Source: an uncultured Gammaproteobacteria bacterium
GTDB taxonomy: Bacteria > Patescibacteriota > Microgenomatia > Levybacterales > GWA1-39-11
Assembly: GCA_964504535.1 (NCBI GenBank)
Contig: CAZDED010000004.1
Coordinates: 44,115-108,114 of the forward strand
Reading direction: 5' to 3'
DNA: 64,000 nucleotides
Shown: one piece after another, positions 7,491 to 60,404 of the stretch
Numbering within the stretch: position 1 is the stretch's first letter
Layout: each line of letters begins with the position of its first letter
The notes under the pieces: generated by a model
What the model saw: the letters and a program-made list of their open reading frames with translations, nothing else
The model's database searches: none
Told to the model about the DNA's origin: nothing
Position numbers and translations under genes: made by a program

Positions 7491-8063
7491 ATGGCCAACG
7501 TAGAAACAACTACATCTGATCGACTAGCTCCAATTTCTACAAATAGACCTCGTTCAAAAACACTTGCTGAACTCGCACCATGTTTTACACCCTTTGGCAG
7601 AGAGAAAGTTTTTGCCGAAGGAAGCGTTTTTGAAATGCCTTCCACCGAGGGCCAGCTTGCTGTTTGGGGGGTTGTGAAGAGATCTCCTGACCACCAACGA
7701 GTAACGGCAATAAATAAAATTCTTGTTGTACCAGATCAAAACGGAGATGAAGTGTGGGTGGTACCTGAACAACCAGGGAAGGAAGACCGTTCGAAACGAT
7801 TTAGATTCATGCAGGATCGCGGACTAGAAATATCTCTTTTTAATGGAAGCGTATTGCAGGCAGAATATGATTTGGACACCGGACAGCTACGAAGCTATTC
7901 AAGCTCAGAACACACAGAAGAGGTTCCTACGGTACTTCCTCCAAAAGAACTCTCCGGAGTTTTAGATACCATGAGTTGCCTCGTATCTGGGATTCCACTC
8001 GAACTAACCACTCTTCAATCGTTAGTTAATTTCCCCCGCGACCACAAACTCGAAAGCTTCTAA
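7491..8063 (+). CDS. Hypothetical protein with no recognisable domain; GC somewhat above local background.
   Basis: 190-aa ORF with uniform coding signal and no family recognised. Confidence 0.4.
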   Translation: MANVETTTSDRLAPISTNRPRSKTLAELAPCFTPFGREKVFAEGSVFEMPSTEGQLAVWGVVKRSPDHQRVTAINKILVVPDQNGDEVWVVPEQPGKEDRSKRFRFMQDRGLEISLFNGSVLQAEYDLDTGQLRSYSSSEHTEEVPTVLPPKELSGVLDTMSCLVSGIPLELTTLQSLVNFPRDHKLESF

Positions 8064-23623: not shown

Positions 23624-24127
23624 ATGAAGATATATCTAGCATCAGATCATGCAGGATTCAATCTTAAAGAAAAAGTTAAAAAAACACTGACGGAAAGTGG
23701 ATACGACATTGAGGATTGCGGAGCTTATGAATTTGAACCCACTGATGATTATCCTGATTACATCAAAAAGGCTGCTGAAAACGTCTCGAGAAACCCAGAA
23801 GACAAAGCTATTATTTTTGGAAGCTCTGGACAAGGTGAAGCAATTGTTGCCAATAAATTTAAAGGTGTAAGAGCAGTTGTTTTTTACACCCCTATTATTC
23901 CTGCTCATGCTGTGGATGTAACTGGCCGCACCAGTAGTGATGCTTTTGAGATGATCCGGCTAACTCGTGAACACAACGATGCAAATGTTTTATCTATCGG
24001 AGCACATATCCTGAGTGAAGCAGATGCTCTCCATGCTATTAAACAATGGCTCGAAGCACCGTTCTCAAATGATGAGAGACACATCAGACGGATCAGGAAA
24101 ATTTCTCAAATAGAAGACCATGAATGA
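23624..24127 (+). CDS. rpiB: Ribose-5-phosphate isomerase B (RpiB/LacAB family).
   Basis: MKIYLASDHAGFNLKE start with catalytic Cys in GYDIEDCGA; start overlaps the upstream stop (ATGA-type coupling). Confidence 0.85.
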   Translation: MKIYLASDHAGFNLKEKVKKTLTESGYDIEDCGAYEFEPTDDYPDYIKKAAENVSRNPEDKAIIFGSSGQGEAIVANKFKGVRAVVFYTPIIPAHAVDVTGRTSSDAFEMIRLTREHNDANVLSIGAHILSEADALHAIKQWLEAPFSNDERHIRRIRKISQIEDHE

Positions 24128-24761
24128 AGTAATACCAAGCCCAGGTACTGAAAATAAAAATTGGGAAGATATTGAAGATAGATTAAACCGCATAAAACCT
24201 TTCGCAAAATCCATTCATATTGATGTTTTAGATGGCAAGTTTGCTCCTAATACTACTTTTTCGGATGCTTCAAAATTTTCAGGCTTTACGAAAGAGACTC
24301 TTTTCGAGGTTCATTTGATGGTCGACAACCCTGTGCAGTATCTAAAAACATGGGCTGATGCAGGATTTAGACGATTTATTGGTCAGATAGAAAAAATGCC
24401 TGATCCCATTGAGTTTGTTGCCCAGGGACAATTACTCGGAGAGGTGGGCATTGCTGTTGATGGCCCAACGGGACTTGAAGTGTTAAACAACCTTAATCTT
24501 AACGATTTAGATTGTTTACTTATAATGACAATTAACGCTGGGTTTTCAGGTCAGGAATTTCAGCCGGAAATGCTTGATAAGGTAAGAACAATGAAAGAAA
24601 AATACCCTTATTTAACGATAGAAGTTGATGGAGGAATAAATGAAAACACAATTGTTGATTCAAAAAAAGCAGGAGCAAGCAGATTTGTCACAACAAGCAC
24701 TCTTTATAAGGCTGATGACATTTCTGAAGAGTTCAAAAAATTAACCTCACTCATCAAATGA
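24120..24761 (+). CDS. rpe: Ribulose-phosphate 3-epimerase.
   Basis: IHIDVLDGKFAPNTTF and VDGGIN motifs of Rpe; overlaps rpiB by 8 nt (operon). Confidence 0.85.
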   Translation: MNEVIPSPGTENKNWEDIEDRLNRIKPFAKSIHIDVLDGKFAPNTTFSDASKFSGFTKETLFEVHLMVDNPVQYLKTWADAGFRRFIGQIEKMPDPIEFVAQGQLLGEVGIAVDGPTGLEVLNNLNLNDLDCLLIMTINAGFSGQEFQPEMLDKVRTMKEKYPYLTIEVDGGINENTIVDSKKAGASRFVTTSTLYKADDISEEFKKLTSLIK

Positions 24762-24770
24762 GTCGGGGTG

Positions 24771-24794
24771 CCGAGGGGAGTTACCCCCTCGACA
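24771..24794. terminator. GC-rich stem-loop (ccgaggggagttaccccctcg) between the convergent rpe and the GC-rich gene; candidate bidirectional terminator.
   Basis: 7-bp perfect stem seen in the sequence; no strong U-tract, so only a candidate. Confidence 0.35.
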
Positions 24795-24813
24795 CCGTTG
24801 GACTGCAAACCCT

Positions 24814-26133
24814 CTAGCGGACAACTACCGTGAATTGCCTCCCCCCGGGACTGGTCGTGATCTGTATGCTGATCACGAAATGTGTTTTGGTCGTGTCAGG
24901 TGCCATTTGCCCGGGAAGGCAATTGGCGTTTCCTTCACAGGGAGCAGATGCGAGGGCAGTGAATGAGAAGTGCCAGCACTTCCCAGACGTAGGACAGGCT
25001 GGCGCCTGTGACATTGGCGCTGGACTTGCTGCATTTCGTGGATATTCCGTCATATCCATAGTGAGCTTGATCGTCACCCCCGTCGCAACGTCTGGCGTGG
25101 TCAGATCGAAAGGAACCACGTCTCCCGGACAAATGACCGAATAGCCTATCGTCAAGGAGTCGCCGTTGGTTGCCGTGTATGTAGTTCCCGAAGTGCTGGT
25201 GCACGAAACGGGCGGCGGTGTAGGAGTGTTCGTTGGTGTAGCACTTGGACTTGGGCTCGGCGTTACTGCCGACTGGGTCGGGGTTGGCGTCGATGTCTTA
25301 GTCGGAGTCGGACTTGGCGAAACCCCGGGCACTGATGTTGAGGTGCTCGTGGCTGTTGCTGTAGCCGTTCCGGTCTGAGTGGCAGTTGCCGACGGGAACA
25401 CTGTTCCCGTAGACGTTGTGCTCGGACTTGGAGACGGAGCTACGGTTCCGGTCTTTGTTGCCGTTTGAGTCGGCGTGATCGTAACAATTCCGGTTGCCGT
25501 CGGAGTGACAGTCCTGGAAAAGATTGCCCTAGGTGACGGCGTGGCTGATGGCATCGGAGTTGATGTCTCACATCCCGTAAGGGCATATGGGGCAACTTGT
25601 ACTTGCGTACTTGCGTATACCTCGCTCCACGCGGCAACCCAGTCTCGATTGAGACCGATGACCATCCCGACGCCGACATTATTGCCGTCGGCAACGAGCT
25701 GATCTGCGACCAATGGGTCTTGCGCCATAGCGCTTACCGACACCTGATCCGCGGCTACGATGCTTGCTGACTGTGCCTGAACTTGAGAGCATTCAGGCGT
25801 ACTGTCTGAAGCAACGAAGGGAATGGTTAGGCGATGCGACATGGTGGCGCTAGGTGGCGTCTGGGACGCTGATGCTCCTTCGGCAATTGCCGGATTGTCC
25901 ATCCTCACAAGAGAGAGGACAAGCATGGCGGCTGCCAAAAAGAGCATCACAACCGGCGGAATGGATCTTCTTGAACGGGTGTGCACAGAACTCCTTCTTT
26001 CCTTTATGGGCTGGCTGAGTGTTTGCAGGTTTTCAAGGAGCGTTTCCGCATCCTTAAAAGCAATCTTTGAGGTGCGAAAACACAACTCAAGGGTATTATA
26101 TAACATCTTCCCGAAGGAAGATGTTTTCTTCAA
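24814..26133 (-). CDS. Secreted/cell-surface protein with a long Thr/Pro/Ser-rich linker and a Cys-containing C-terminal domain; compositionally foreign (GC-rich). The true start is probably an internal Met, for example near 25947.
   Basis: 439-aa ORF, the longest in a ~1.3-kb stretch whose GC and third-position GC are far above the flanks. Signal-peptide-like RSRRSIPPVVMLFLAAAMLVLSLV...AIA|EG; PT-linker (TPTATGIVTITPTQTATKTGTVAPSPSPSTTSTG...). The first 10 codons overlap a terminator hairpin. Confidence 0.55.
   Translation of the reverse strand: MKKTSSFGKMLYNTLELCFRTSKIAFKDAETLLENLQTLSQPIKERRSSVHTRSRRSIPPVVMLFLAAAMLVLSLVRMDNPAIAEGASASQTPPSATMSHRLTIPFVASDSTPECSQVQAQSASIVAADQVSVSAMAQDPLVADQLVADGNNVGVGMVIGLNRDWVAAWSEVYASTQVQVAPYALTGCETSTPMPSATPSPRAIFSRTVTPTATGIVTITPTQTATKTGTVAPSPSPSTTSTGTVFPSATATQTGTATATATSTSTSVPGVSPSPTPTKTSTPTPTQSAVTPSPSPSATPTNTPTPPPVSCTSTSGTTYTATNGDSLTIGYSVICPGDVVPFDLTTPDVATGVTIKLTMDMTEYPRNAASPAPMSQAPACPTSGKCWHFSFTALASAPCEGNANCLPGQMAPDTTKTHFVISIQITTSPGGRQFTVVVR
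26102..26125. terminator. Perfect 10-bp inverted repeat (aacatcttcc-cgaa-ggaagatgtt) followed by T-rich sequence; rho-independent terminator downstream of the beta-lactamase-like gene.
   Basis: Seen directly in the sequence, 33 nt past the stop of the 26158..27015 minus-strand gene. Confidence 0.6.
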
Positions 26134-26157: not shown

Positions 26158-27015
26158 TTATTTGCTTCCGCGGTCTATATAAATAGTTTCAGCTATCTTT
26201 CCGATTGTCTCTTTTGCATAGTCTCCATCAGTAAGATTGCTAGATGTAACTACTAAAATAAATGGGGTCTTTCCATTTGAGACTATTCCTCCGTCGTGAA
26301 TAAAATTTATTCCATCTCCGGTTTTGTGATAGATATGAAGTCCCCGAGGCAAAAGTCGAGAAATTCTATCTTCAAAATCCGTGTTTTCCATATATCCCAT
26401 CATTTCCTTTGTAAGTGCAGGTGTTGCGATTTTATTGGTGTACAACATCTTAAAAAACGTTTGTATGTCTCTGCACGACGTGTCGTTTTCTACCATGTTA
26501 GTAGCACTCATCCCAAGTCTGTATGCGTATGCCTGTATATTGTCTTCCCCAAGCCTGATATTGAGAACGTGTGCCGCGGTATTATCTGATTTCTGAAGAG
26601 CAAGTTGGGCGAGGTACTGGAGTGTATATGTTTTTCCAGGCTCTTCATAACGGATGACACCAGTTCCGTAGTCCTGTATGTCAGATTTTTGTATAACAAC
26701 GGTTTCTTGAAGATCTATCTCTTTTTTTGCTGCAAGAGAGTAAAGGTACCCAACTACCGGCAACTTGTTCATTGATGCTCCAGTCAATACCGTATCTGGA
26801 TGGATACCGAAAGACTCATCAGTAGTAAGATCCGTATAGCAGACATTAAATTCTCCTTTTTTATTCTTGAGAAGATCCGCAACATCCTGGCGTATCACTT
26901 CTGTATCTTTCGCTTTTTGAGTCCCTCCCAACGTCACAACAGGGATAAAAAGGAGATTTCTTCCCAGAATGAGTAGAAAAAATGAGTAGAAAAGAAATAT
27001 TACTGTTTTTCTCAT
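26158..27015 (-). CDS. Class A beta-lactamase-family serine hydrolase (secreted).
   Basis: Signal peptide; SxxK (SMNK), SDN (QKSDNTAAH) and KTG (HKTGDG) triad spacing typical of class A beta-lactamases. Confidence 0.65.
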   Translation of the reverse strand: MRKTVIFLFYSFFLLILGRNLLFIPVVTLGGTQKAKDTEVIRQDVADLLKNKKGEFNVCYTDLTTDESFGIHPDTVLTGASMNKLPVVGYLYSLAAKKEIDLQETVVIQKSDIQDYGTGVIRYEEPGKTYTLQYLAQLALQKSDNTAAHVLNIRLGEDNIQAYAYRLGMSATNMVENDTSCRDIQTFFKMLYTNKIATPALTKEMMGYMENTDFEDRISRLLPRGLHIYHKTGDGINFIHDGGIVSNGKTPFILVVTSSNLTDGDYAKETIGKIAETIYIDRGSK

Positions 27016-55546: not shown

Positions 55547-56070
55547 ACAATATCAAGAAAGTGCCAAAATAGTCCCGCCATTGAAATTTTCTGAAGGTTA
55601 GTCTGAGTTAGTCCACGCTTCCTAACATACAGTAGAATTATTGCTATCCAGATACATCCTATTAATATATGGAGACCGTGGGTTCCGGTGAGGGCAAAAA
55701 AGGAAGACAAGAAAGCGCTTTTTGTCCAATCGCTTCCCTCGGATATAAGATGAGCAAACTCATAAAGCTCCATACCTACAAAAACCAACCCCAGGCTCAC
55801 TGTTACAAGAAGCAACATGACTGTTTTTCTCACATTATTGGCACGAGCTGCCATCATCGCTAGTCCACAAATAAATGAACTTATTAGAAGAATAAATGTC
55901 TCCACCAATACAAATGGCGGGTTGAATATTTCCTTAATTGTTATCCCTCCAAACGTGCTGTCTCTCAGAACGGCATAAACAGCAAAAAGAACCGCAAACA
56001 TCAAAAGATCAGTCATGAGATAAATCCAAAAGCCAAAAAGGGCACTGTCGTCTTTTTTATGTTCTTGCAT
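55498..56070 (-). CDS. cyoC: Quinol oxidase subunit III. The start is trimmed to the internal Met at 56070; the ORF-track start at 56136 would overlap cyoB by 80 nt.
   Basis: Five-TM heme-copper oxidase subunit III pattern (HGLHILIG, FWHFLDIVWIFIFT). Confidence 0.75.
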   Translation of the reverse strand: MQEHKKDDSALFGFWIYLMTDLLMFAVLFAVYAVLRDSTFGGITIKEIFNPPFVLVETFILLISSFICGLAMMAARANNVRKTVMLLLVTVSLGLVFVGMELYEFAHLISEGSDWTKSAFLSSFFALTGTHGLHILIGCIWIAIILLYVRKRGLTQTNLQKISMAGLFWHFLDIVWIFIFTIVYLMGGLS

Positions 56071-58030
56071 GGTGTTTCCTTTCTTCAATTTCTCGTACTT
56101 GTGCTGCAGTAACTGTATATTCCGTGTGGTCATCAAAAGTACGAAGTATCACACAAATAACTCCACCTATTACGCAAACGATCGTCAACCAAAACATGTG
56201 CCAAATCATTGCAAATCCAAAAAGAAAAACGAAGACGGCAGTATAAATTCCAAGTCCGGTATTTTTCGGCATCACGATATCTTCATATTCTTTGTGCTTA
56301 TTGTGGCTTCCATTTTTCTTCATTTCCCAAAATGCATCACGAGAGGTAACCTCTGGAATTTTTGCAAAATTATAAAAGGGTGGTGGAGAGGAGGTAGCCC
56401 ACTCCAAATTCCTCCCATCCCATGGATCTCCGGTGGTGTCCATGTTTTGTTTTCTTTGTTTTACGCTAATAACTATTTGGGCCACCTGCAAGAGTGCGCC
56501 TGCTGTCAAAACCAAAAACCCAAGTCCTGCGATGATAAATAGTATCTGCCAACCCGGATTATCATAATGGTCAAGCCTTCTTGTAGCACCCATTAGTCCC
56601 AATACATAAAGCGGCACAAAAGACATAAGAAACCCAACTAACCAACACCAAAACGCATACCTGCCAAGTTTTTCATTCAACCTAAATCCGGTTATTTTAG
56701 GAAACCAAAAAGTAATGCCGGCAAATATTCCAAACAAAGCACCTCCAATTATCATCGTGTGGAAGTGAGCGACGAGAAACAAACTATTGTGAAGCTGGAA
56801 ATCAGCAGGGGGCATCGCCAATATTACACCAGCCATCCCTCCAACGGTAAAAGTTGCTAAAAATCCAAAAAACCAAAGGAACGGCGTAGCAACCCGTATC
56901 CTACCTTTATACATTGTTGATATCCAATTAAATATCTGGACCCCTGCAGGAATTGCAATAAGACTTGTCATAATTCCAAAAAATGCATTAACATTTGCCC
57001 CAGCCCCCATGGTAAAGAAGTGATGCAGCCACACAACAAGACCAATTGAGGCAATGCCGCATCCGGCAAGAACCATTGATGTGTATCCCGAAAGTCTTTT
57101 CTTGGAGAAAGTCGTCACAACTTCCGAATAAATCCCGAAAGAGGGGAGAATCAAAACGTACACCTCTGGGTGACCCCACATCCATATTAAATTCGTGTAC
57201 ATCATGGCACTTCCCCCAAAATCTGTCGTAAAAAAGTGCATTCCAAAAACTCTATCAAGAGACAGCAATGTAATTGTTGCAGTCAAAATAGGAAATATCG
57301 AGACCACAAGGATCATGCTAAATAATGATGTCCATACAAAAAGTGGCATTCGAGAGAGCGTCATCCCCGGTGCTCTTTTTTTCATAATTGTCATAATAAA
57401 ATTTATTGCACCAATTAGCGTCCCGAGGCCAGATACCTGAAGAGACCATATCCAAAAATCCACACCAACCCCCGGACTAAATTGCAGCTCAGAAAGAGGA
57501 GCAATAGCAAGCCAACCGGTTGCAGCAAATTCTCCACCAAAAACAAAAAACAGATTTATCATGATGCACCCCGCAACATACAACCAAAAACCCAACGTGT
57601 TAAGAAAAGGGGAAGCCAAATCTCTTGCTCCAATCTGAAGGGGAATAATGTAGTTAAGTAGCCCAAAAAGAAATCCCATCGTTACAAAAAACACCATAAT
57701 AACGCCATGTGCTGTAAATATCTGCTGAAAATGATCTGCTGTCAGATAGCCTTGAGAGGAACCTACGGCGATAGCCTGCTGTGCCCATATCATTCCAGCA
57801 TCCATGGCTCCCCTCACTAACATAAGAGCTGCCATAACAAAATACATGATTCCAATTTTTTTAGGGTCTGTTGAAGTGAACCATTCATTCCATAGCCATT
57901 TCCACCTTTTTAGTTTTGTGATAAAAATAACGACCATCCCCATCATTGCGGTCATGGCAACTGTCCCGCCAATTGTGAACCATTCGTGGGGAAGAGAAGC
58001 AAGCGTTAATTTTCCAAAAATAAATTCCAT
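56057..58030 (-). CDS. cyoB: Heme-copper quinol oxidase subunit I.
   Basis: 657 aa with ~15 TM helices; conserved His ligands (WFFGHPEVY-like GHPEVYVLILP, HHFFTMG, VAHFHTMI). Confidence 0.9.
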   Translation of the reverse strand: MEFIFGKLTLASLPHEWFTIGGTVAMTAMMGMVVIFITKLKRWKWLWNEWFTSTDPKKIGIMYFVMAALMLVRGAMDAGMIWAQQAIAVGSSQGYLTADHFQQIFTAHGVIMVFFVTMGFLFGLLNYIIPLQIGARDLASPFLNTLGFWLYVAGCIMINLFFVFGGEFAATGWLAIAPLSELQFSPGVGVDFWIWSLQVSGLGTLIGAINFIMTIMKKRAPGMTLSRMPLFVWTSLFSMILVVSIFPILTATITLLSLDRVFGMHFFTTDFGGSAMMYTNLIWMWGHPEVYVLILPSFGIYSEVVTTFSKKRLSGYTSMVLAGCGIASIGLVVWLHHFFTMGAGANVNAFFGIMTSLIAIPAGVQIFNWISTMYKGRIRVATPFLWFFGFLATFTVGGMAGVILAMPPADFQLHNSLFLVAHFHTMIIGGALFGIFAGITFWFPKITGFRLNEKLGRYAFWCWLVGFLMSFVPLYVLGLMGATRRLDHYDNPGWQILFIIAGLGFLVLTAGALLQVAQIVISVKQRKQNMDTTGDPWDGRNLEWATSSPPPFYNFAKIPEVTSRDAFWEMKKNGSHNKHKEYEDIVMPKNTGLGIYTAVFVFLFGFAMIWHMFWLTIVCVIGGVICVILRTFDDHTEYTVTAAQVREIEERKHHART

Positions 58031-58031
58031 A

Positions 58032-58895
58032 TTAGTGATTCATTGTTCCCATATATTTCGTGATAATTTTATTATACAAACCTTCTTCGGTTGATGAGTA
58101 AAAGAGTGGAGGAGTGTTCTCTGATGGCACCATCAACTTTTCATATTCATTATCGTCTAACTTTTTCGGGGAGTTTTTGACTACTTGTATCCATGAGTCA
58201 AATTCATTTTGGGTCACTGATTTTGCCATAAATTTCATACCAGAAAATCCCCGGCCACTTATTTCAGCAGCCGATCCTTTATACTCTCCCGTTGCATCTG
58301 CTATAAGTCTTAATTTGGTACCCATTCCGGTCATGGTGTACATTTGTCCACCAAGGGAAGGTATCCAAAATGAATTCATGGGCGCATCTGAAGTCAACTC
58401 AAAATTGATAGGGGTTTTTTCAGGAAACTCTAAATAATTTACCGTTGCAATGTCTTTCTCGGGATAGATAAATAACCACTTCCACTGAAGAGAAATCACC
58501 TGAACTGTAAGAGGTTTTTTGTCAGATTCTAGCGCCCGCATGGGGTCAAGACGGTGGGTTGCTCTCCAATTGTTGACCCCAAGGATAATTACGACAACTG
58601 TAGGGATCGCCCACCACGCAAAAACCAACAACCTGCTCCTATTCCAGTCTGGGTCATAGGTAGATTTTTTTGATTCATTATATTTCCTTGATACAAAATA
58701 CTCGAGCATAAAAATAGGGATGACAACAAGCAGCATAATTCCGACAGCAAATAGTGCAAGATTTCTTTCATGTGTTGCTATAAAACCTTTAGGGTTAAGA
58801 AGAGCAAAGTCTTCTCCGGTCATAAACCCAATAAAAATTATTCCCAACACCAAAAGCGCAGGCATAATAATATAAAGATGGTGTTTTTTTAACAT
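58032..58895 (-). CDS. cyoA: Quinol oxidase subunit II, with no CuA site.
   Basis: Two N-terminal TM helices and a cupredoxin-like domain lacking the CxExCGxxH CuA motif (SFWIPSLGGQMYTMTGMGTKL), as in bo3/aa3 quinol oxidases. Confidence 0.8.
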   Translation of the reverse strand: MLKKHHLYIIMPALLVLGIIFIGFMTGEDFALLNPKGFIATHERNLALFAVGIMLLVVIPIFMLEYFVSRKYNESKKSTYDPDWNRSRLLVFAWWAIPTVVVIILGVNNWRATHRLDPMRALESDKKPLTVQVISLQWKWLFIYPEKDIATVNYLEFPEKTPINFELTSDAPMNSFWIPSLGGQMYTMTGMGTKLRLIADATGEYKGSAAEISGRGFSGMKFMAKSVTQNEFDSWIQVVKNSPKKLDDNEYEKLMVPSENTPPLFYSSTEEGLYNKIITKYMGTMNH

Positions 58896-59279
58896 AAATT
58901 TCTAGTGCTAGATTAATTGTATCATTCCTCATTACCAGATTTATGATCCATATCACAGAATTTTCGTAGTAAAAATGATAGAAGCGGAGCTTGTATCACT
59001 CCGTGATATAATTCCCCTACACCCGAGAGCGAAAAGCATGCTCTTTACGTGTAAAAAGTTTTTAGCACATTAAAAATCTAGTTACGAAAAAGTGATCTTA
59101 ATTATGATTTAGTGTTCCTATTTAGGTACCGGCGTACACGGTGTTTGACTAGGGGCACTAATTCGAAAGAAAGGAGAAGAGCCCTTGGCAGTACGACCAC
59201 GGGTGGAGCCTTCTCCGCCCACAGATCATAGACACGTCACGGCCAGTACGGCCACAAATGCTCATGAAAGGAGCAACTC

Positions 59280-60404
59280 TTGGCAAATGCACAAGGTCTA
59301 ACAACCGATGGGGCTGGAGAAAGCACTACGTCAAGCTCTTTCAGTCACCTAGTCAAAACGGAGCGGGTAAAAGAACTTCTTCGTTCACACGACAGGAGCT
59401 TCTACGCCCACTTCGTGTTCATCTTCATCTGCGTCACGCTGGACCTTTGGGCAACCGCCTTCTGGGTTTCGCGCGCCGTGGAAGCCATAGCCCTCGGAAG
59501 CACCACGGGAATCCTCTCCGGATGGATTGGCCAGCTCGGCCACGACGCCGGACATGGACAGGCCCCAAAAGGCAACATGCCCCTCCAAAGGGTTTTCCAA
59601 CTATTCCTCGGGCCTGTGTGCCTTGGGTTTAGTTCGACTTGGTGGATCAACAAACACGTAATCCACCACAAGTATTCCAACTGGGAGGGAAAGGACGGGG
59701 ACCTCAACATCCCACTTCCTTTCACGGCCAATCAGGCACGGGAACGCGGAAAGACAGCAGATTCTTTCCGTATCAAGAACGCAAGGTGGATCTTCCCCTT
59801 GATCTTGCCCCTACAGGCCATCAACGCCCGGATTTCAAGTATTTTCTACGTTTTCAAGTCGAAAGACAGACTGCGTGGAAAGGTTCTTCAGTTGGGCGGC
59901 ATCGCCTCCCATCTCGCTCTGTACGGACTGCTGTTGTACGTGATCGTACAACACGCAGGCTGGCACAACGCCCTGTGGTTTGCGGCCTTTCACCAAGGGG
60001 TTCACGGGTTTTACAACGCCTGTGTGTTCGCGACGAACCACAAAGGCATGCCCGTTTTTCCTCCCAACCAAAAGCCTGAGTGGCTTGACCTCCAAATCCT
60101 AACCTCACGCAACGTGAGGGTCGACTGGGAAATTTTCCACTTGAGGCACGGGTGGATCCTCGAGCGAATAGTGGACGAACTGGTCACATGGCTGTACGGA
60201 GGCCTTAACTACCAGATCGAACACCACCTGTTCCCAACGATGCCCCGGGCAAACCTGCGAAAGGTACGCCCACTCGTAATTGAGTTCTGCCGCCAACACG
60301 GTTACGACTACTACGAGACGGGGGTCATCAGGTCCTACAGGGAAGTTCTCCAGAACTTCGAGAACGTGAGGATTGAACTCCTCGACAGTCCGATGGGTGC
60401 GTAG
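59280..60404 (+). CDS. Membrane fatty-acid/sphingolipid desaturase of the front-end (Q-x2-HH) type, without a cytochrome b5 domain; compositionally foreign (GC-rich), TTG start.
   Basis: Three His boxes (HDAGH, HVIHH, QIEHHLFP) with the expected TM topology. The whole ~59.1-60.4-kb stretch is strongly GC-enriched versus the flanks. SD aaaggag lies 8 nt upstream of the TTG. Confidence 0.7.
   Translation: MANAQGLTTDGAGESTTSSSFSHLVKTERVKELLRSHDRSFYAHFVFIFICVTLDLWATAFWVSRAVEAIALGSTTGILSGWIGQLGHDAGHGQAPKGNMPLQRVFQLFLGPVCLGFSSTWWINKHVIHHKYSNWEGKDGDLNIPLPFTANQARERGKTADSFRIKNARWIFPLILPLQAINARISSIFYVFKSKDRLRGKVLQLGGIASHLALYGLLLYVIVQHAGWHNALWFAAFHQGVHGFYNACVFATNHKGMPVFPPNQKPEWLDLQILTSRNVRVDWEIFHLRHGWILERIVDELVTWLYGGLNYQIEHHLFPTMPRANLRKVRPLVIEFCRQHGYDYYETGVIRSYREVLQNFENVRIELLDSPMGA

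What the first reader, a model, noticed from the sequence alone, without database searches (positions are those of the whole stretch)
24770..26133. Second GC-rich single-gene insertion: Thr/Pro/Ser-rich secreted protein
Between rpe and a beta-lactamase-like gene lies a ~1.3-kb GC-rich segment. It encodes a protein with a signal-peptide-like segment, a ~120-residue (T/P/S)n linker of the kind seen in glycoside-hydrolase or cell-surface proteins, and a Cys-containing C-terminal domain of unknown function. The annotated N-terminus overlaps a perfect 10-bp terminator hairpin (26102..26125) belonging to the neighbouring gene, so the real start is internal. This is a foreign-origin surface or adhesion factor candidate, possibly host-interaction related.
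Basis: partly seen in the sequence, partly recalled or inferred. Interest (0 to 1): 0.55.

Follow-up and report, generated by a model that had tools for sequence, protein, structure and literature searches.

The report
Variable surface-protein cassette with clamped mRNA
The GC-rich segment is a real gene for a secreted, stalked protein, but it is not a fresh foreign insertion: it is an old, fast-changing gene cassette shared by a whole group of tiny Candidatus Levyibacteriota bacteria, and its odd base composition goes with an unusually tightly folded messenger RNA whose two ends pair with each other.

Summary
Window 24814-25986 (- strand) is a real gene with 57% GC and GC3 of 0.55, against 38% and about 0.30 around it. 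Its true start is the internal GTG at 25986. It encodes a signal peptide, a helical N-domain, a Thr/Pro/Ser linker of about 110 aa and a Cys-containing beta-sandwich of a new family.

The 'recent foreign insertion' reading is not supported.
- The gene fills the same slot (beta-lactamase-like gene | gene | rpe) in relatives whose flanking proteins are only about 60% identical.
- It is equally GC-rich in all of them.
- Every homologue with genomic context but one lies in that slot. The exception, in a GC-rich genome, nests inside the Levyibacteriota alleles.

New findings:
- A conserved structured 5' leader with no Rfam match precedes every slot gene.
- A 12-nt leader segment (26017-26028) co-varies with the 12 nt at the stop codon (24803-24814). 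In 14 of 14 loci the stop-codon window is its best partner in the transcript.
- The coding RNA folds far more stably than shuffles that keep protein, codons and dinucleotides (z -4.4 to -7.1; neighbouring genes -0.8 to +2.3).

Best reading: a lineage-specific, recombining envelope-protein cassette whose GC-rich synonymous sites are kept for RNA structure. The function as an adhesin is inferred, not shown.

The parts
26102..26125 (-). Perfect 10-bp hairpin with a TTCG loop, 32 nt after the stop of the beta-lactamase-like gene and abutting the -10 box. Probably that gene's terminator.
   Evidence: I8. It is identical in L001, L003, L006 and L007. It is absent from L143 and from more distant relatives, so it is not part of the core cassette.
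26095..26100 (-). TATAAT -10 box (TATAATAC), invariant in all 16 distinct leader sequences read (17 loci counting L001, whose leader is identical to the window's).
   Evidence: No convincing -35 element was found. The transcription start is inferred, not mapped.
25987..26094 (-). Structured 5' leader of about 108 nt. It comprises E1 (26072-26088, 5' strand of P1), hairpin P2 with a GAAA tetraloop (26030-26059), E2 (26017-26028) and the Shine-Dalgarno AAGGAG (25991-25996).
   Evidence: Conservation: about 147 nt are nearly identical among lineages whose flanking genes have dS 0.6-1.8. Detection: covariance model R1 scores 37-101 bits once per occupied locus, including loci not used for training (L016, L043, L061, L142, L143). 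It scores nothing in the empty sites or elsewhere in the window. Structure: 91.5% of cells paired and 5 compensatory pairs. Known families: no Rfam match.
26017..26028 (-). E2: leader segment CUGCAAACACUC, complementary to E3 about 1.2 kb downstream.
   Evidence: I1. Co-variation with E3: 10 of 14 pairs are compensatory, with a score of 0.479 against 0.216 +/- 0.035 in shuffles (0 of 500 shuffles reach it).
24814..25986 (-). Coding sequence of 390 aa plus TAG.
25879..25986 (-). Signal peptide (aa 1-36). It has a basic n-region, an 18-aa hydrophobic core, and a conserved A-x-A | E-G cleavage-type site.
   Evidence: Read from the sequence and from conservation in alignment A1. No signal-peptide predictor was available.
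25537..25878 (-). N-terminal domain (aa about 37-150), predicted helical at low confidence. It contains the family motif (L/V)P.HRYV..VA(S/A)DSA, which is locally rewritten in this allele.
   Evidence: (pLDDT 50-72).
25207..25536 (-). Thr/Pro/Ser/Ala-rich linker (aa about 151-260). It is length-polymorphic between alleles and is the likely crossover zone between the N and C modules.
   Evidence: insertions in P0002 and P0004; pLDDT below 50; the N and C parts have different nearest relatives.
24817..25206 (-). C-terminal Cys-containing beta-sandwich domain (aa 261-390) of a new, lineage-restricted family.
   Evidence: AlphaFold2 gives pLDDT 90.8 and pTM 0.83. There is no Pfam, NCBIfam or PDB sequence match. 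No Foldseek hit has E below 0.01 and TM-scores are 0.3-0.45. Only 14 matches were found in 1.84 billion representatives.
24803..24814 (-). E3: GAGGGUUUGCAG, starting at the last base of the stop codon. It is the partner of E2.
   Evidence: In some searches it ranks as the best of about 1000-1300 candidate windows in 14 of 14 loci. In one search the E2:E3 helix appears in the global MFE of 7 of 8 full transcripts.
24767..24796 (-). GC-rich 13-bp hairpin (GGUGUCGAGGGGG UAAC UCCCCUCGGCACC) between the converging gene and rpe. Probable terminator.
   Evidence: It is conserved in the relatives and also in the GC-rich-genome copy L141.

Best explanation
What it is. This is a self-contained gene cassette native to a sub-clade of Candidatus Levyibacteriota (Patescibacteria/CPR). 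It occupies a fixed slot between a beta-lactamase-like gene and rpe.

Shown here.
- It encodes a modular protein: a Sec-type signal peptide, an N-module, an extended Thr/Pro/Ser stalk and a disulfide-capable beta-sandwich head.
- The gene is old in the clade.
- It evolves several times faster than its neighbours, and its modules are reshuffled between lineages by recombination.
- Its GC-richness is a stable property of the gene and not a fading foreign signature.
- Its synonymous sites are arranged so that the coding RNA is predicted to fold much more stably than chance.
- The transcript carries a conserved structured 5' leader.
- A leader segment co-varies with the nucleotides at the stop codon.

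Inferred.
- The leader and the 5'/3'-UTR helix close the mRNA into a loop. Together with the dense internal structure, this protects the mRNA from ribonucleases and ties its stability or translation to ribosome traffic, because a terminating ribosome would sit on the 3' partner.
- This gives long-lived, tightly controlled expression of an abundant envelope protein.
- G/C at third codon positions is retained because it strengthens these helices.
- The protein is exported and displays its variable beta-sandwich head on the stalk, most likely to bind a partner cell or substrate surface. That would explain the diversification.
For: A real, constrained gene.
- Homologues share 35-99% identity.
- dN/dS is 0.08-0.25 in the C-domain.
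- The C-domain folds confidently (pLDDT 90.8).

Old and syntenic.
- The order comM, bla, gene, rpe, rpiB, pfkB, PBP holds in L001-L009, L012, L015, L017 and L143.
- Flank proteins fall to 58-66% identity in the most distant of these.
- The slot is empty only in outgroup L014 and in nested L010.

Stable composition.
- GC3 is 0.49-0.58 in every lineage, against about 0.30 in the flanks.
- Derived synonymous changes are balanced: 17 AT-to-GC against 20 GC-to-AT.
- The copy in a GC3-0.85 genome also has GC3 0.55.

No outside donor.
- Only 14 matches were found in 1.84 billion representatives.
- The one copy in a GC-rich genome nests inside the Levyibacteriota alleles, with bootstrap 79.

Recombination.
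- Against L001, dS is 0.13-0.50 in the gene but 0.85-1.22 in the flanks.
- Against L006, the N-part has dS 0.56 but the C-part 1.47.
- Against L003 the pattern is reversed.
- Slots in L008, L009 and L012 keep the leader, signal peptide and linker but carry different C-domains.

RNA features.
- The leader is conserved and modelled.
- E2:E3 co-varies.
- The stop-codon window ranks as the best partner in 14 of 14 loci.
- The helix appears in 7 of 8 whole-transcript MFE predictions.
- Folding z-scores against shuffles that keep protein, codons and dinucleotides are -6.9 (window), -5.3, -7.1, -5.5, -5.0, -4.4 and -6.4 for seven family members. Controls: bla -0.07, comM +2.3, PBP -0.7, Uma2 -0.8.

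Precedent. A 14-bp 5'/3'-UTR interaction modulates RNase Y cleavage of B. subtilis hbs mRNA (PMC5737220). 5'/3'-UTR pairing controls translation of S. aureus icaR mRNA (PMC3868564, title listed).
Against: - There are no expression data. The transcription start, the 3' end and the mRNA half-life are unknown.
- All structures are thermodynamic predictions. Whole-transcript MFE predictions are unreliable in detail.
- The E2/E3 co-variation fits DNA-level inverted repeats as well as RNA pairing: G.U cells (11) are not clearly more frequent than A.C cells (9).
- The antisense strand also shows excess structure (z -2.8 to -6.3), so the strand under selection is not settled.
- P1 and P2 rest on 13 distinct sequences with modest co-variation.
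- The alternative leader pairing shows no co-variation.
- The second GC-rich gene, the desaturase, also has excess folding (z -3.0) but no clamp. High GC and excess structure may therefore share a cause other than the one proposed.
- Surface location, any glycosylation of the linker and any ligand are pure inference. The fold search gives only generic Ig-like or CBM-like similarity.
- After signal-peptide cleavage, no anchor to the cell is evident in this allele.
Confidence: 0.6

Rival explanations
1. Recent horizontal acquisition from a GC-rich donor. The island keeps the donor's composition because too little time has passed for it to drift to host values.
For: - Composition and codon usage are strongly atypical: TTC 78% against 22%, ACG 39% against 15%, Lys 1.3% against 7.7%.
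- The slot is empty in L010 and L014.
- One homologue lies in a 61% GC genome.
- Thr/Pro linkers are common in GC-rich phyla, and the weak linker-only hits include proteins labelled Chloroflexota and Anaerolineae.
Against: - The gene is present at the same site, with the same GC3, in lineages with saturated synonymous divergence and about 60% flank identity.
- No homologues lie outside the slot except L141. That copy is GC-poorer than its own neighbours and nests inside the Levyibacteriota alleles.
- Synonymous substitution directions are balanced.
- There is no integrase and there are no flanking direct repeats. tRNA genes were not scanned for.
- An ancient transfer at the base of the sub-clade cannot be excluded, but it would not explain why the composition persists.
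Confidence: 0.1
2. E2 and E3 are DNA inverted repeats of an invertible segment. A site-specific recombinase would flip the whole coding region relative to the fixed promoter and leader, giving ON/OFF phase variation of a surface antigen.
For: - The 12-bp inverted repeats bracket exactly the RBS plus coding sequence, with the promoter outside (I1).
- The repeats co-evolve, as expected if strand exchange needs matching cores.
- G.U cells are not clearly favoured over A.C cells.
- The gene product is a variable surface-type protein, the usual target of phase variation.
Against: - All assemblies examined (about 20 loci from different samples and lineages) show a single orientation.
- No recombinase lies within about 8 kb in L001, L003, L004 or L017. 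The one recombinase seen, a Resolvase/Recombinase-family gene in L005, lies about 7 kb away.
- A third copy (E1) inside the leader pairs with E2 to form P1, with its own compensatory changes. That is expected for RNA switching and not for an inverton.
- In several lineages the complementary stretch contains bulges (L004, L008), which RNA helices tolerate better than recombination cores.
Confidence: 0.12
3. The high GC3 is a by-product of frequent recombination (GC-biased gene conversion at an allele-swapping hotspot). It is not selected for RNA structure, and the excess folding is a side effect.
For: - The gene is demonstrably mosaic and is exchanged between lineages.
- The neighbouring rpe is also more diverged than other flanking genes.
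- The idea that recombination raises GC3 in bacteria comes from my own knowledge of the literature. I did not check it here.
Against: - A rise from 0.30 to 0.55 is, to my knowledge, far larger than effects attributed to biased conversion in bacteria.
- GC content is held constant in the shuffles. Raised GC3 therefore cannot explain why the arrangement of synonymous bases gives z of -4.4 to -7.1.
- The leader, which lies inside the exchanged unit, is not GC-rich (0.39-0.49).
Confidence: 0.13
4. The ORF is a spurious open frame in a GC-rich stretch, and the functional product is non-coding or lies in another frame.
For: - GC-rich DNA gives long open frames by chance.
- Several overlapping ORFs of 70-106 aa exist.
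- The region is highly structured as RNA.
Against: - dN/dS is well below 1 in this frame.
- Length differences between alleles are whole codons.
- The C-domain is predicted with pLDDT 90.8 from only 11 sequences.
- A conserved RBS and start codon are present.
- Signal-peptide features are conserved across alleles.
Confidence: 0.01

Closest known systems
Secreted or cell-surface proteins with Pro/Thr-rich linkers, such as glycoside-hydrolase and cellulosome linkers and the stalks of S-layer or surface glycoproteins
   Same: The architecture is a signal peptide, a low-complexity T/P/S/A spacer of about 110 aa predicted to be disordered, and a small globular beta-sandwich at the end.
   Different: - No catalytic, SLH, cohesin/dockerin, CBM or other known domain is detectable by sequence.
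- Fold similarity to CBM21, CBM56 and Ig-like domains is only generic (E of 0.01 or more, TM 0.3-0.45).
- No anchoring motif is present.
DUF11 (PF01345) and CARDB-type Ig-like repeats of prokaryotic surface proteins
   Same: - It is a beta-sandwich of similar size.
- The C-domain profile weakly hits a DUF11 repeat protein (P0064, E 4e-7; identified as DUF11).
- The motif order PGD ... W ... PD is shared.
   Different: - The Pfam models do not match the window protein.
- The profile-profile probability is only 3.9%.
- The conserved cysteines of this family are absent from DUF11.
Bacterial mRNAs with 5'/3'-UTR base pairing: B. subtilis hbs (PMC5737220) and S. aureus icaR (PMC3868564)
   Same: An 11-14 bp complementarity links a segment of the 5' UTR upstream of the Shine-Dalgarno to the 3' UTR. 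In hbs a 14-bp interaction modulates RNase Y cleavage in a highly structured leader.
   Different: - Here the interaction is inferred only from co-variation and energy ranking.
- The 3' partner abuts the stop codon.
- A third, competing copy (E1) lies in the leader.
- The enclosed coding region is itself hyper-structured and compositionally deviant.
- No anti-SD pairing with the 3' UTR of the icaR type was established.
Genomic islands acquired by horizontal transfer
   Same: - It is a single-gene segment with deviant GC, codon usage and amino-acid usage.
- It has sharp boundaries.
- It is absent from some relatives.
   Different: - It is conserved at one site across a deep clade.
- Its composition is not drifting towards host values.
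- There are no mobility genes or repeats.
- No donor is known.
- The only inter-phylum copy points outward from the Levyibacteriota.
Variable surface-antigen loci maintained by allele exchange, such as pilin, capsule or O-antigen type loci flanked by conserved genes
   Same: - The position is fixed between conserved housekeeping genes.
- Alleles are far more diverged than the flanks.
- Gene and flank phylogenies disagree.
- Modules are replaced (C-domain types A, B and C).
   Different: - It is a single gene.
- There are no silent cassettes or paralogues nearby.
- dN/dS gives no sign of pervasive positive selection.
- The non-coding bracket is conserved while the coding part varies.

Membership tests
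Recently acquired genomic island (HGT) | Atypical base composition and codon usage relative to the genome | tested here: met
   GC is 0.569 against 0.385 and GC3 is 0.55 against 0.34 +/- 0.08.
Recently acquired genomic island (HGT) | Patchy presence: absent from close relatives at the same site | tested here: not met
   It is present in all close and most distant relatives at the same site. The site is empty only in L010 and L014.
Recently acquired genomic island (HGT) | Mobility signatures: integrase or transposase, tRNA target, flanking direct repeats | tested here: not met
   No integrase or transposase appears among the neighbouring genes. No flanking direct repeats were found. The tRNA criterion was not tested: no tRNA scan was run.
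Recently acquired genomic island (HGT) | Closest homologues in a donor lineage of matching composition | tested here: not met
   There are 14 matches in 1.84 billion representatives. The single copy in a GC-rich genome is nested within the Levyibacteriota alleles and is GC-poorer than its own flanks.
Sec-exported protein with a cleavable type I signal peptide | Basic n-region, hydrophobic h-region of 10-20 residues, and small residues at -3 and -1 (A-x-A) | tested here: met
   The sequence reads MHTRSRRS / IPPVVMLFLAAAMLVLSLV / RMDNPAIA|EG. The A/S-x-A|E-G/A site is conserved in P0002-P0007. This rests on inspection only; no predictor was run.
Bacterial lipoprotein | Lipobox [LVI][ASTVI][GAS]C at the end of the h-region | tested here: not met
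   There is no Cys within the first 60 residues of the window protein. Cys-containing motifs in homologues lie 15 or more residues beyond the h-region.
Sortase-anchored (LPXTG-type) surface protein | C-terminal sorting motif, hydrophobic segment and basic tail | tested here: not met
   The window protein ends ...GGRQFTVVVR, with no hydrophobic tail. The slot proteins of L009 and L012 do end in a hydrophobic segment plus RKK or RRRK, but without LPXTG.
DUF11 / CARDB Ig-like domain | Significant match to the family HMM or profile | tested here: not met
   Pfam scan: 0 families. hhalign against a DUF11 protein: probability 3.9%.
DUF11 / CARDB Ig-like domain | Beta-sandwich fold | tested here: inconclusive
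mRNA with 5'/3'-UTR interaction (hbs / icaR type) | Extended complementarity between a 5'-UTR segment and the 3' UTR of the same transcript | tested here: met
   The complementarity is 11 of 12 nt in the window. The stop-codon window is the best partner among about 1000-1300 windows in 14 of 14 loci.
mRNA with 5'/3'-UTR interaction (hbs / icaR type) | Evolutionary support: compensatory changes | tested here: met
   10 of 14 pairs have changes on both sides. The co-variation score is 0.479 against 0.216 +/- 0.035 in shuffles, and 0 of 500 shuffles reach it. Caveat: I chose the alignment register by anchoring on the GC core.
mRNA with 5'/3'-UTR interaction (hbs / icaR type) | Both segments lie on one transcript and pair in vivo, with an effect on stability or translation | not testable with these tools
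   This needs RNA-seq or RACE, structure probing and mutational analysis.
Known cis-regulatory RNA or riboswitch (Rfam 15) | Match to a curated covariance model | tested here: not met
   The best hits have E of 6.6 and 7.2, far below the gathering scores.
Invertible DNA switch (inverton) | Inverted repeats flanking the switched segment | tested here: met
   E2 and E3 are 12 nt, 92% complementary and 1202 nt apart.
Invertible DNA switch (inverton) | Both orientations observed, and a cognate recombinase nearby | tested here: not met
   Only one orientation is seen in about 20 assembled loci. No recombinase lies within about 8 kb in most of them. Raw reads could not be examined.
Diversity-generating retroelement target | Template repeat and reverse transcriptase near the variable region | tested here: not met
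   No second copy of any part of the gene exists in the 64-kb window. No RT appears among the genes called in the flanks of the related loci L001-L005 and L017. The window's own genes outside 20-29 kb and 58-62 kb were not scanned for an RT domain.

The most novel reading that the evidence does not exclude
This may be a previously undescribed kind of expression cassette in ultra-small CPR bacteria, an 'armoured' mRNA. A dedicated structured leader, a co-evolving helix that joins the 5' UTR to the nucleotides at the stop codon, and a coding region whose synonymous sites are selected for dense secondary structure would together control the lifetime and translation of a hypervariable, stalked surface protein. 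The selection for structure would hold the gene at about 55% GC whatever the genome around it. The conserved bracket would also serve as the homology frame for swapping heads of the protein between lineages. The coding part has crossed phyla at least once into a GC-rich organism, which may be the physical host of the epibiont.
Probability: 0.3. Interest if true: 0.8.

Novelty: new variant of a known kind. Interest (0 to 1): 0.66.

Why it matters
1. Deviant GC content is routinely read as recent horizontal transfer. Here the same deviation is a stable, apparently selected property of one gene across a deep clade, and also in a genome of opposite composition. This is a concrete counter-example, with a testable cause in RNA structure.

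2. Candidate Phyla Radiation bacteria are thought to live attached to other cells, and the molecules that make contact are almost unknown. A positionally conserved, fast-evolving, modular exported protein is a specific candidate for that contact.

3. Long-range 5'/3'-UTR pairing in bacterial mRNAs is known from very few cases, each studied in one organism. This case comes with strong comparative support across many lineages and a simple experimental handle: compensatory mutations in two 12-nt segments.

4. The leader is a new conserved RNA motif that is absent from Rfam.

Tried and rejected
Protein family and fold.
- Pfam, NCBIfam and PDB sequence searches of the protein and of the alternative slot proteins found nothing.
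- Foldseek against PDB and BFVD gave no hit with E below 0.01.
- DUF11 homology is not supported: hhalign probability is 3.9%.
- Homology of the type C head (L009, L012) to this C-domain was not detected (probability 0.1%). For the type B head (L008) there is only a weak 37-column match.
- The second word-indexed search with the C-domain profile returned only two fragments. The exhaustive search was needed.

RNA families and leader.
- Rfam searches of the locus and of the desaturase locus found nothing.
- A conserved upstream ORF in the leader was rejected. The window has ATG-CGG-AAA..., but the ATG is absent in L009 and L012.
- Alternative leader pairing GUUUYCGC:GCGGAAAC: 95% of cells can pair, but there is no co-variation beyond shuffles. 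It remains a hypothesis.

Tests that stayed undecided.
- G.U against A.C counting to separate RNA pairing from DNA repeats was undecided, at 11 against 9.
- Sense against antisense folding: both are significant, with sense only somewhat stronger.
- The polarised substitution test is weak. Parsimony over-counts AT-to-GC changes in the AT-rich flanks (145 against 60), so only the balance within the gene is used.

Rejected mechanisms.
- A lipobox was considered and rejected on spacing.
- A DGR or paralogue source of variation was rejected: no repeat of the gene occurs in the window.
- The same clamp around the second GC-rich gene (desaturase) is absent, with ranks 371 of 1131 and 182 of 1104.

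Other.
- Literature searches for Levyibacteria and for Patescibacteria surface proteins found nothing relevant.
- The first whole-gene folding script timed out.


Full report
1. THE OBSERVATION

The segment is as described. In 300-nt windows, GC rises from 0.36-0.42 to 0.56-0.59 between about 24800 and 25850, then falls back. The whole window averages 0.385.

The long ORF on the minus strand (24814-26133) lies between rpe (24120-24761, Ribul_P_3_epim, E 2e-33) and a Beta-lactamase2 family gene (26158-27015, E 9e-47).

GC3 of the gene is 0.55, against 0.28-0.35 in six neighbours. It is raised in the N-terminal part (0.55), the linker (0.51) and the C-terminal part (0.59) alike. Among 49 ORFs of at least 150 aa, GC3 is 0.339 +/- 0.077. 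Only this gene and a fatty-acid desaturase at 59280-60404 are far outliers.

Synonymous usage differs for almost every amino acid:
- Phe TTC 78% against 22%.
- Asp GAC 69% against 36%.
- Thr ACG 39% against 15%.
- Pro CCG 38% against 13%.

Amino-acid usage is also deviant: Lys 1.3% against 7.7%, and Thr+Ser+Ala+Pro make up 52%.

Back-translating the protein with host codon frequencies predicts GC 0.50 and GC3 0.35, against 0.569 and 0.55 observed. About 60% of the excess is therefore due to amino-acid composition and about 40% to synonymous choice.

The hairpin at 26102-26125 is a perfect 10-bp stem with a 4-nt loop.

The real start is GTG 25986, five nt after AAGGAG. Homologues from other lineages begin exactly there.

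2. IT IS A GENE, AND WHAT IT ENCODES

The first database search found a small family, P0001-P0012 and P0017, at 35-99% identity. Its other hits matched only the low-complexity linker.

Evidence that this frame is translated:
- Length differences between alleles are whole codons and lie in the linker.
- dN/dS against four relatives is 0.08-0.25 in the C-domain and 0.19-0.39 in the N-part for three of them. The exception is the comparison with L001 (0.91), which is driven by the rewritten patch at 25816-25860 listed under things noticed in passing.

The protein has four parts:
- A signal peptide: a basic n-region, an 18-residue hydrophobic core, and an A-x-A|E-G site conserved across alleles.
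- An N-domain of about 110 residues, predicted helical at low confidence.
- A disordered T/P/S/A-rich stretch of about 110 residues.
- A 130-residue C-domain.

AlphaFold2 predicts the C-domain as an all-beta sandwich with pLDDT 90.8 and pTM 0.83 from only 11 sequences. Three cysteines, an M-D pair, a Trp and a P-D pair are invariant.

Nothing known matches the protein:
- Pfam, NCBIfam and PDB sequence searches found no match.
- Foldseek against PDB and BFVD gives only assorted Ig-like and CBM-like sandwiches, with E of 0.01 or more and TM 0.3-0.45.
- A weak profile hit to a DUF11 repeat protein is not confirmed by profile-profile comparison (3.9%).

The window protein has no lipobox, no LPXTG-type tail and no second membrane segment.

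3. NOT A RECENT INSERTION: A CONSERVED SLOT

Every family member whose neighbours could be read lies in the same place, with one exception. The order is comM, beta-lactamase-like gene, [gene], rpe, rpiB, pfkB, PBP1.

A scan of one genome per species with the beta-lactamase-like protein brought in nine more loci. Two are named Candidatus Levyibacteriota. The others carry a generic 'uncultured Gammaproteobacteria' label that does not fit their gene content.

Flank proteins of the most distant occupied loci are only 58-66% identical to the window's. Synonymous sites of the flanks are at or near saturation even among the closest relatives (dS 0.6-1.8). Yet the gene has GC 0.52-0.58 and GC3 0.49-0.58 in all of them, against flanks of 0.36-0.42.

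The slot is empty, with 14 and 18 nt between the two stop codons, in L010 and L014. In a neighbour-joining tree of the flanking proteins, L014 is the outgroup and L010 is nested. One ancient gain and one loss is the simplest history.

In L008, L009 and L012 the slot holds an equally GC-rich gene with the same plan: signal peptide, short conserved N-motif, T/P/S linker and a Cys-containing C-domain. The heads, however, are not detectably related (L009, L012) or only marginally related (L008) to this one. The L009 and L012 proteins add a C-terminal hydrophobic segment with a basic tail.

An exhaustive HMMER search of 1.84 billion representative proteins with the C-domain profile found only 14 matches.

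4. FAST EVOLUTION AND MODULE EXCHANGE

The gene diverges several-fold faster than its flanks: dN is 0.03-0.43 against 0.02-0.09, leaving aside the two most diverged flank comparisons, both with L007 (rpe 0.15, rpiB 0.32). Its history also disagrees with theirs:
- Against L001, the flanks have dS 0.85-1.22 but the gene only 0.13-0.50.
- Against L006, the N-part and linker match the flanks (dS 0.4-0.6), but the C-domain is much older (dS 1.47, dN 0.37).
- Against L003 it is the other way round (the sliding identity shows the same pattern).
- In the C-domain tree, L006 groups with L007 (bootstrap 98), whereas its flanks group with the window.

The linker is the obvious crossover zone. This is the pattern of a surface locus whose alleles and modules are exchanged by homologous recombination between related lineages.

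5. THE ONE COPY OUTSIDE THE SLOT

P0007 is 46% identical over the full length. It lies on a 2.4-kb contig of 61% GC, between a Phd/YefM antitoxin and a Uma2-family endonuclease whose GC3 is 0.85. There the gene has GC3 0.548, which is lower than its neighbours.

It lacks the leader and the clamp described below, but it keeps the 3' hairpin.

In the C-domain tree it is sister to the window group, inside the Levyibacteriota diversity, with bootstrap 79.

The simplest reading is export of the coding part from a Levyibacteriota-type lineage into a GC-rich organism, not import. This reading rests on one short contig.

6. WHY THE COMPOSITION PERSISTS: THE RNA EVIDENCE

(a) A conserved leader.

The 147 nt between the stop of the beta-lactamase-like gene and the RBS are almost invariant among the window, L001, L003 and L006. 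The flanking genes of these lineages, by contrast, differ at half of their synonymous sites.

A core is present before every slot gene, whatever its head, and absent from the empty sites. The core reads TATAATAC..GAGUUGnGUUUyCGC..[variable]..UUUUnAGGAuGCG-GAAA-CGCUCCUUGAAAA..yuGCrAAAC.

A covariance model built on 11 sequences finds exactly one copy per occupied locus. That includes five loci not used to build it, at 37-101 bits. It finds none elsewhere.

The consensus fold is an outer helix P1 enclosing a hairpin P2 capped by a GAAA tetraloop. It is 91.5% paired, against 29-62% in slid registers, and has five compensatory pairs. Rfam has no match.

(b) A 5'/3' bracket.

The leader segment just after P2 (E2, 26017-26028, CUGCAAACACUC) is complementary to the 12 nt that begin at the last base of the stop codon (E3, 24803-24814, GAGGGUUUGCAG).

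The two segments change together in every lineage:
- GCAAAC/GUUUGC in the window group.
- GCGAAC/GUUCGC in L008.
- GCGGA..CUUCC/GGAAG..UCCGC in L004.
- GCGGAAAAACC/GGUUUUUUCGC in L017.
- CGGAAACUCC/GGAGUUUUCG in L009.
- AUCUGCGAAU/AUUCGCAGAU in L016.

In formal counts, 10 of 14 pairs have changes on both sides. The co-variation score is 0.479 against 0.216 +/- 0.035, and 0 of 500 shuffles reach it.

An unbiased test compared a fixed 26-nt leader probe with every 24-nt window of the coding region and 3' flank. The window at the stop codon ranks first of about 1000-1300 in 12 of 12 loci, and again in two loci fetched later.

The helix also appears in the global minimum-energy fold of the whole transcript in 7 of 8 lineages.

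The desaturase island, used as a control, shows nothing of the kind.

(c) A hyper-structured coding region.

The native coding sequence was compared with shuffles that keep the protein, the exact codon counts and all dinucleotide counts. It folds 30-55 kcal/mol more stably than these shuffles. The z-scores are:
- Window gene: -6.9.
- L003: -5.3.
- L005: -7.1.
- L009: -5.5.
- L008: -5.0.
- L004: -4.4.
- The copy in the GC-rich genome: -6.4.

The neighbouring genes give -0.07, +2.3, -0.7 and -0.8. Simpler shuffles give the same picture.

The signal is spread over the gene: N-part -3.7, linker -1.4, C-part -1.6.

Because GC content is fixed in these shuffles, the arrangement of synonymous bases is itself non-random, in the direction of pairing.

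(d) Substitution direction.

Derived synonymous changes in the gene are balanced: 17 AT-to-GC against 20 GC-to-AT. This is as expected at compositional equilibrium and not during decay towards host values. The test is weak, for the reasons given under tried and rejected.

7. MECHANISM PROPOSED

Shown:
- The conserved promoter box and leader.
- The co-varying E2/E3 pair.
- The excess predicted structure.
- The stable GC3.
- The synteny.
- The recombination.
- The modular exported-type protein.

Inferred:
- The transcript runs from just after TATAAT to the GC-rich hairpin at 24767-24796.
- While only the 5' part exists, E2 pairs with E1 to form P1.
- Once the 3' end is made, the stronger E2:E3 helix can close the mRNA into a loop.
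- E3 abuts the stop codon, so terminating ribosomes must melt this helix. That ties the state of the leader to translation.
- Closing the ends and burying the coding region in helices would shield the mRNA from 5'-end-dependent and AU-preferring ribonucleases.
- Selection for those helices would hold G/C at third positions.

The closest experimentally studied parallel is B. subtilis hbs mRNA. There a 14-bp 5'/3'-UTR interaction modulates RNase Y cleavage in a structured leader (PMC5737220). S. aureus icaR is a second case, where the pairing controls translation (PMC3868564, title listed).

The protein would be exported, and it would carry a variable beta-sandwich on a long, possibly glycosylated stalk. 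A contact or adhesion role fits the life style attributed to these bacteria and the diversification seen here. No result here tests that role.

8. RIVALS

- Recent HGT is contradicted by sections 3 and 5. An ancient transfer into the ancestor of the sub-clade cannot be excluded, but it would not explain the persistence of the composition.
- E2 and E3 could instead be inverted repeats of an invertible segment. In favour: co-evolving repeats bracketing exactly RBS plus gene, and no clear excess of G.U over A.C mismatches. Against: a single orientation in about 20 assemblies, no recombinase nearby in most loci, and the third copy E1 that forms P1.
- GC-biased gene conversion at a recombination hotspot could raise GC3. 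It does not account for the non-random arrangement at fixed GC.
- The antisense strand also shows excess structure, so the strand under selection is not formally settled.

9. NOVELTY AND VERDICT

The protein is a new, lineage-restricted family of a familiar architectural kind. The leader is a new RNA motif. 5'/3'-UTR pairing is known in bacteria but rare, and here it has unusually strong comparative support.

A compositional island that is old, stable and linked to RNA structure runs against the usual reading of such islands.

I rate the finding as a new variant of a known kind, with interest 0.66. All RNA-level claims are computational and need the experiments listed.

Noticed in passing
window 59280-60404 (+), with upstream region about 59130-59279; relative L139 4001-5098: The other GC-rich island encodes a fatty-acid desaturase (PF00487) with GC3 0.67. 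It behaves much like the gene under study. In a relative it sits at the matching position (cytochrome-oxidase genes on one side, a methionine sulfoxide reductase gene on the other). It is only 50% identical there, although that genome's flanking proteins at the main locus are about 88-96% identical to the window's. It is GC-rich there too (GC3 0.63 against 0.33-0.35). An upstream stretch of about 150 nt is strongly conserved and has no Rfam match. Its coding RNA also folds better than shuffles (z -3.0 to -5.7), but it has no 5'/3' clamp. Its more distant homologues are in Actinomycetes and Dehalococcoidia (33-43%).
   Followed up: partly
L141 (ERZ28573539 scaffold_199255), gene 485-1639: A full-length homologue (46% identity) lies in a 61% GC genome, between a Phd/YefM antitoxin and a Uma2 endonuclease (GC3 0.85). 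The gene keeps GC3 0.55 and its 3' hairpin but has no leader and no clamp. It nests inside the Levyibacteriota alleles, which suggests inter-phylum export, conceivably to the epibiont's host. The organism was not identified.
   Followed up: partly
window 25816-25860 (-), codons about 43-57: This is a sharply local rewritten patch. 17 of 45 nt differ from L001 with no indel, inside a stretch that is otherwise about 98% identical. The patch replaces the family motif LGASLP.HRYVVFVA with PSATMSHRLTIPFVA, and it accounts for dN/dS 0.91 in the N-part against L001. The same sequence is in P0001 from another sample, so it is not an assembly error of this window alone. It could be a short conversion tract or local positive selection.
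   Followed up: partly
L008 6987-7916; L009 6153-7205; L012 867-1922: The same slot, leader, signal peptide and T/P/S linker carry different C-terminal heads in these lineages. The L009 and L012 proteins end in a hydrophobic segment followed by RKK or RRRK, like a membrane or sorting anchor, but without an LPXTG motif. No Pfam or NCBIfam match was found.
   Followed up: partly
L005 7926-8852 (protein P0011): The database start of this homologue is too far downstream, so it appears to lack a signal peptide. A GTG after GGAG at 7926 restores an N-terminal hydrophobic segment (MRSLLRVAAPAALVFVVMMVV...).
   Followed up: yes
window 26030-26059 and 26072-26088 (-): The 5' strand of P1 (GUUUUCGC) can also pair with the apex of P2 (GCGGAAAC). 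This would release the CUCCUU stretch, which is complementary to the Shine-Dalgarno. 95% of cells can pair across lineages, and this pairing replaces P2 in the whole-transcript MFE of 4 of 8 lineages. There is no co-variation to prove it. It is a possible switch.
   Followed up: partly
In L143 the beta-lactamase-like gene's stop and the TATAAT box are only about 17 nt apart, with no hairpin. It is therefore a recent addition upstream of the conserved promoter box.
   Followed up: yes
window 56057-58895 (-): Genes for a haem-copper oxidase subunit I (657 aa; the counterpart in relative L139 is called COX1) and subunit II (counterpart COX_ARM) are present in this small, low-GC Levyibacteriota genome. 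This is worth a look, given the reduced respiratory capacity usually reported for these bacteria.
   Followed up: no
L006, L007, L009, L011-L014 (record titles): Seven of the nine species-representative genomes that share this locus are titled 'uncultured Gammaproteobacteria bacterium'. Their gene content and synteny match the two titled Candidatus Levyibacteriota. The titles look like placeholder or mislabelled taxonomy.
   Followed up: no
L004 6367-6780: In this relative comM, upstream of the beta-lactamase-like gene, is replaced by an unrelated 137-aa ORF. In L002 comM is truncated next to a block of unannotated genes. The left side of the locus is thus also prone to rearrangement.
   Followed up: no
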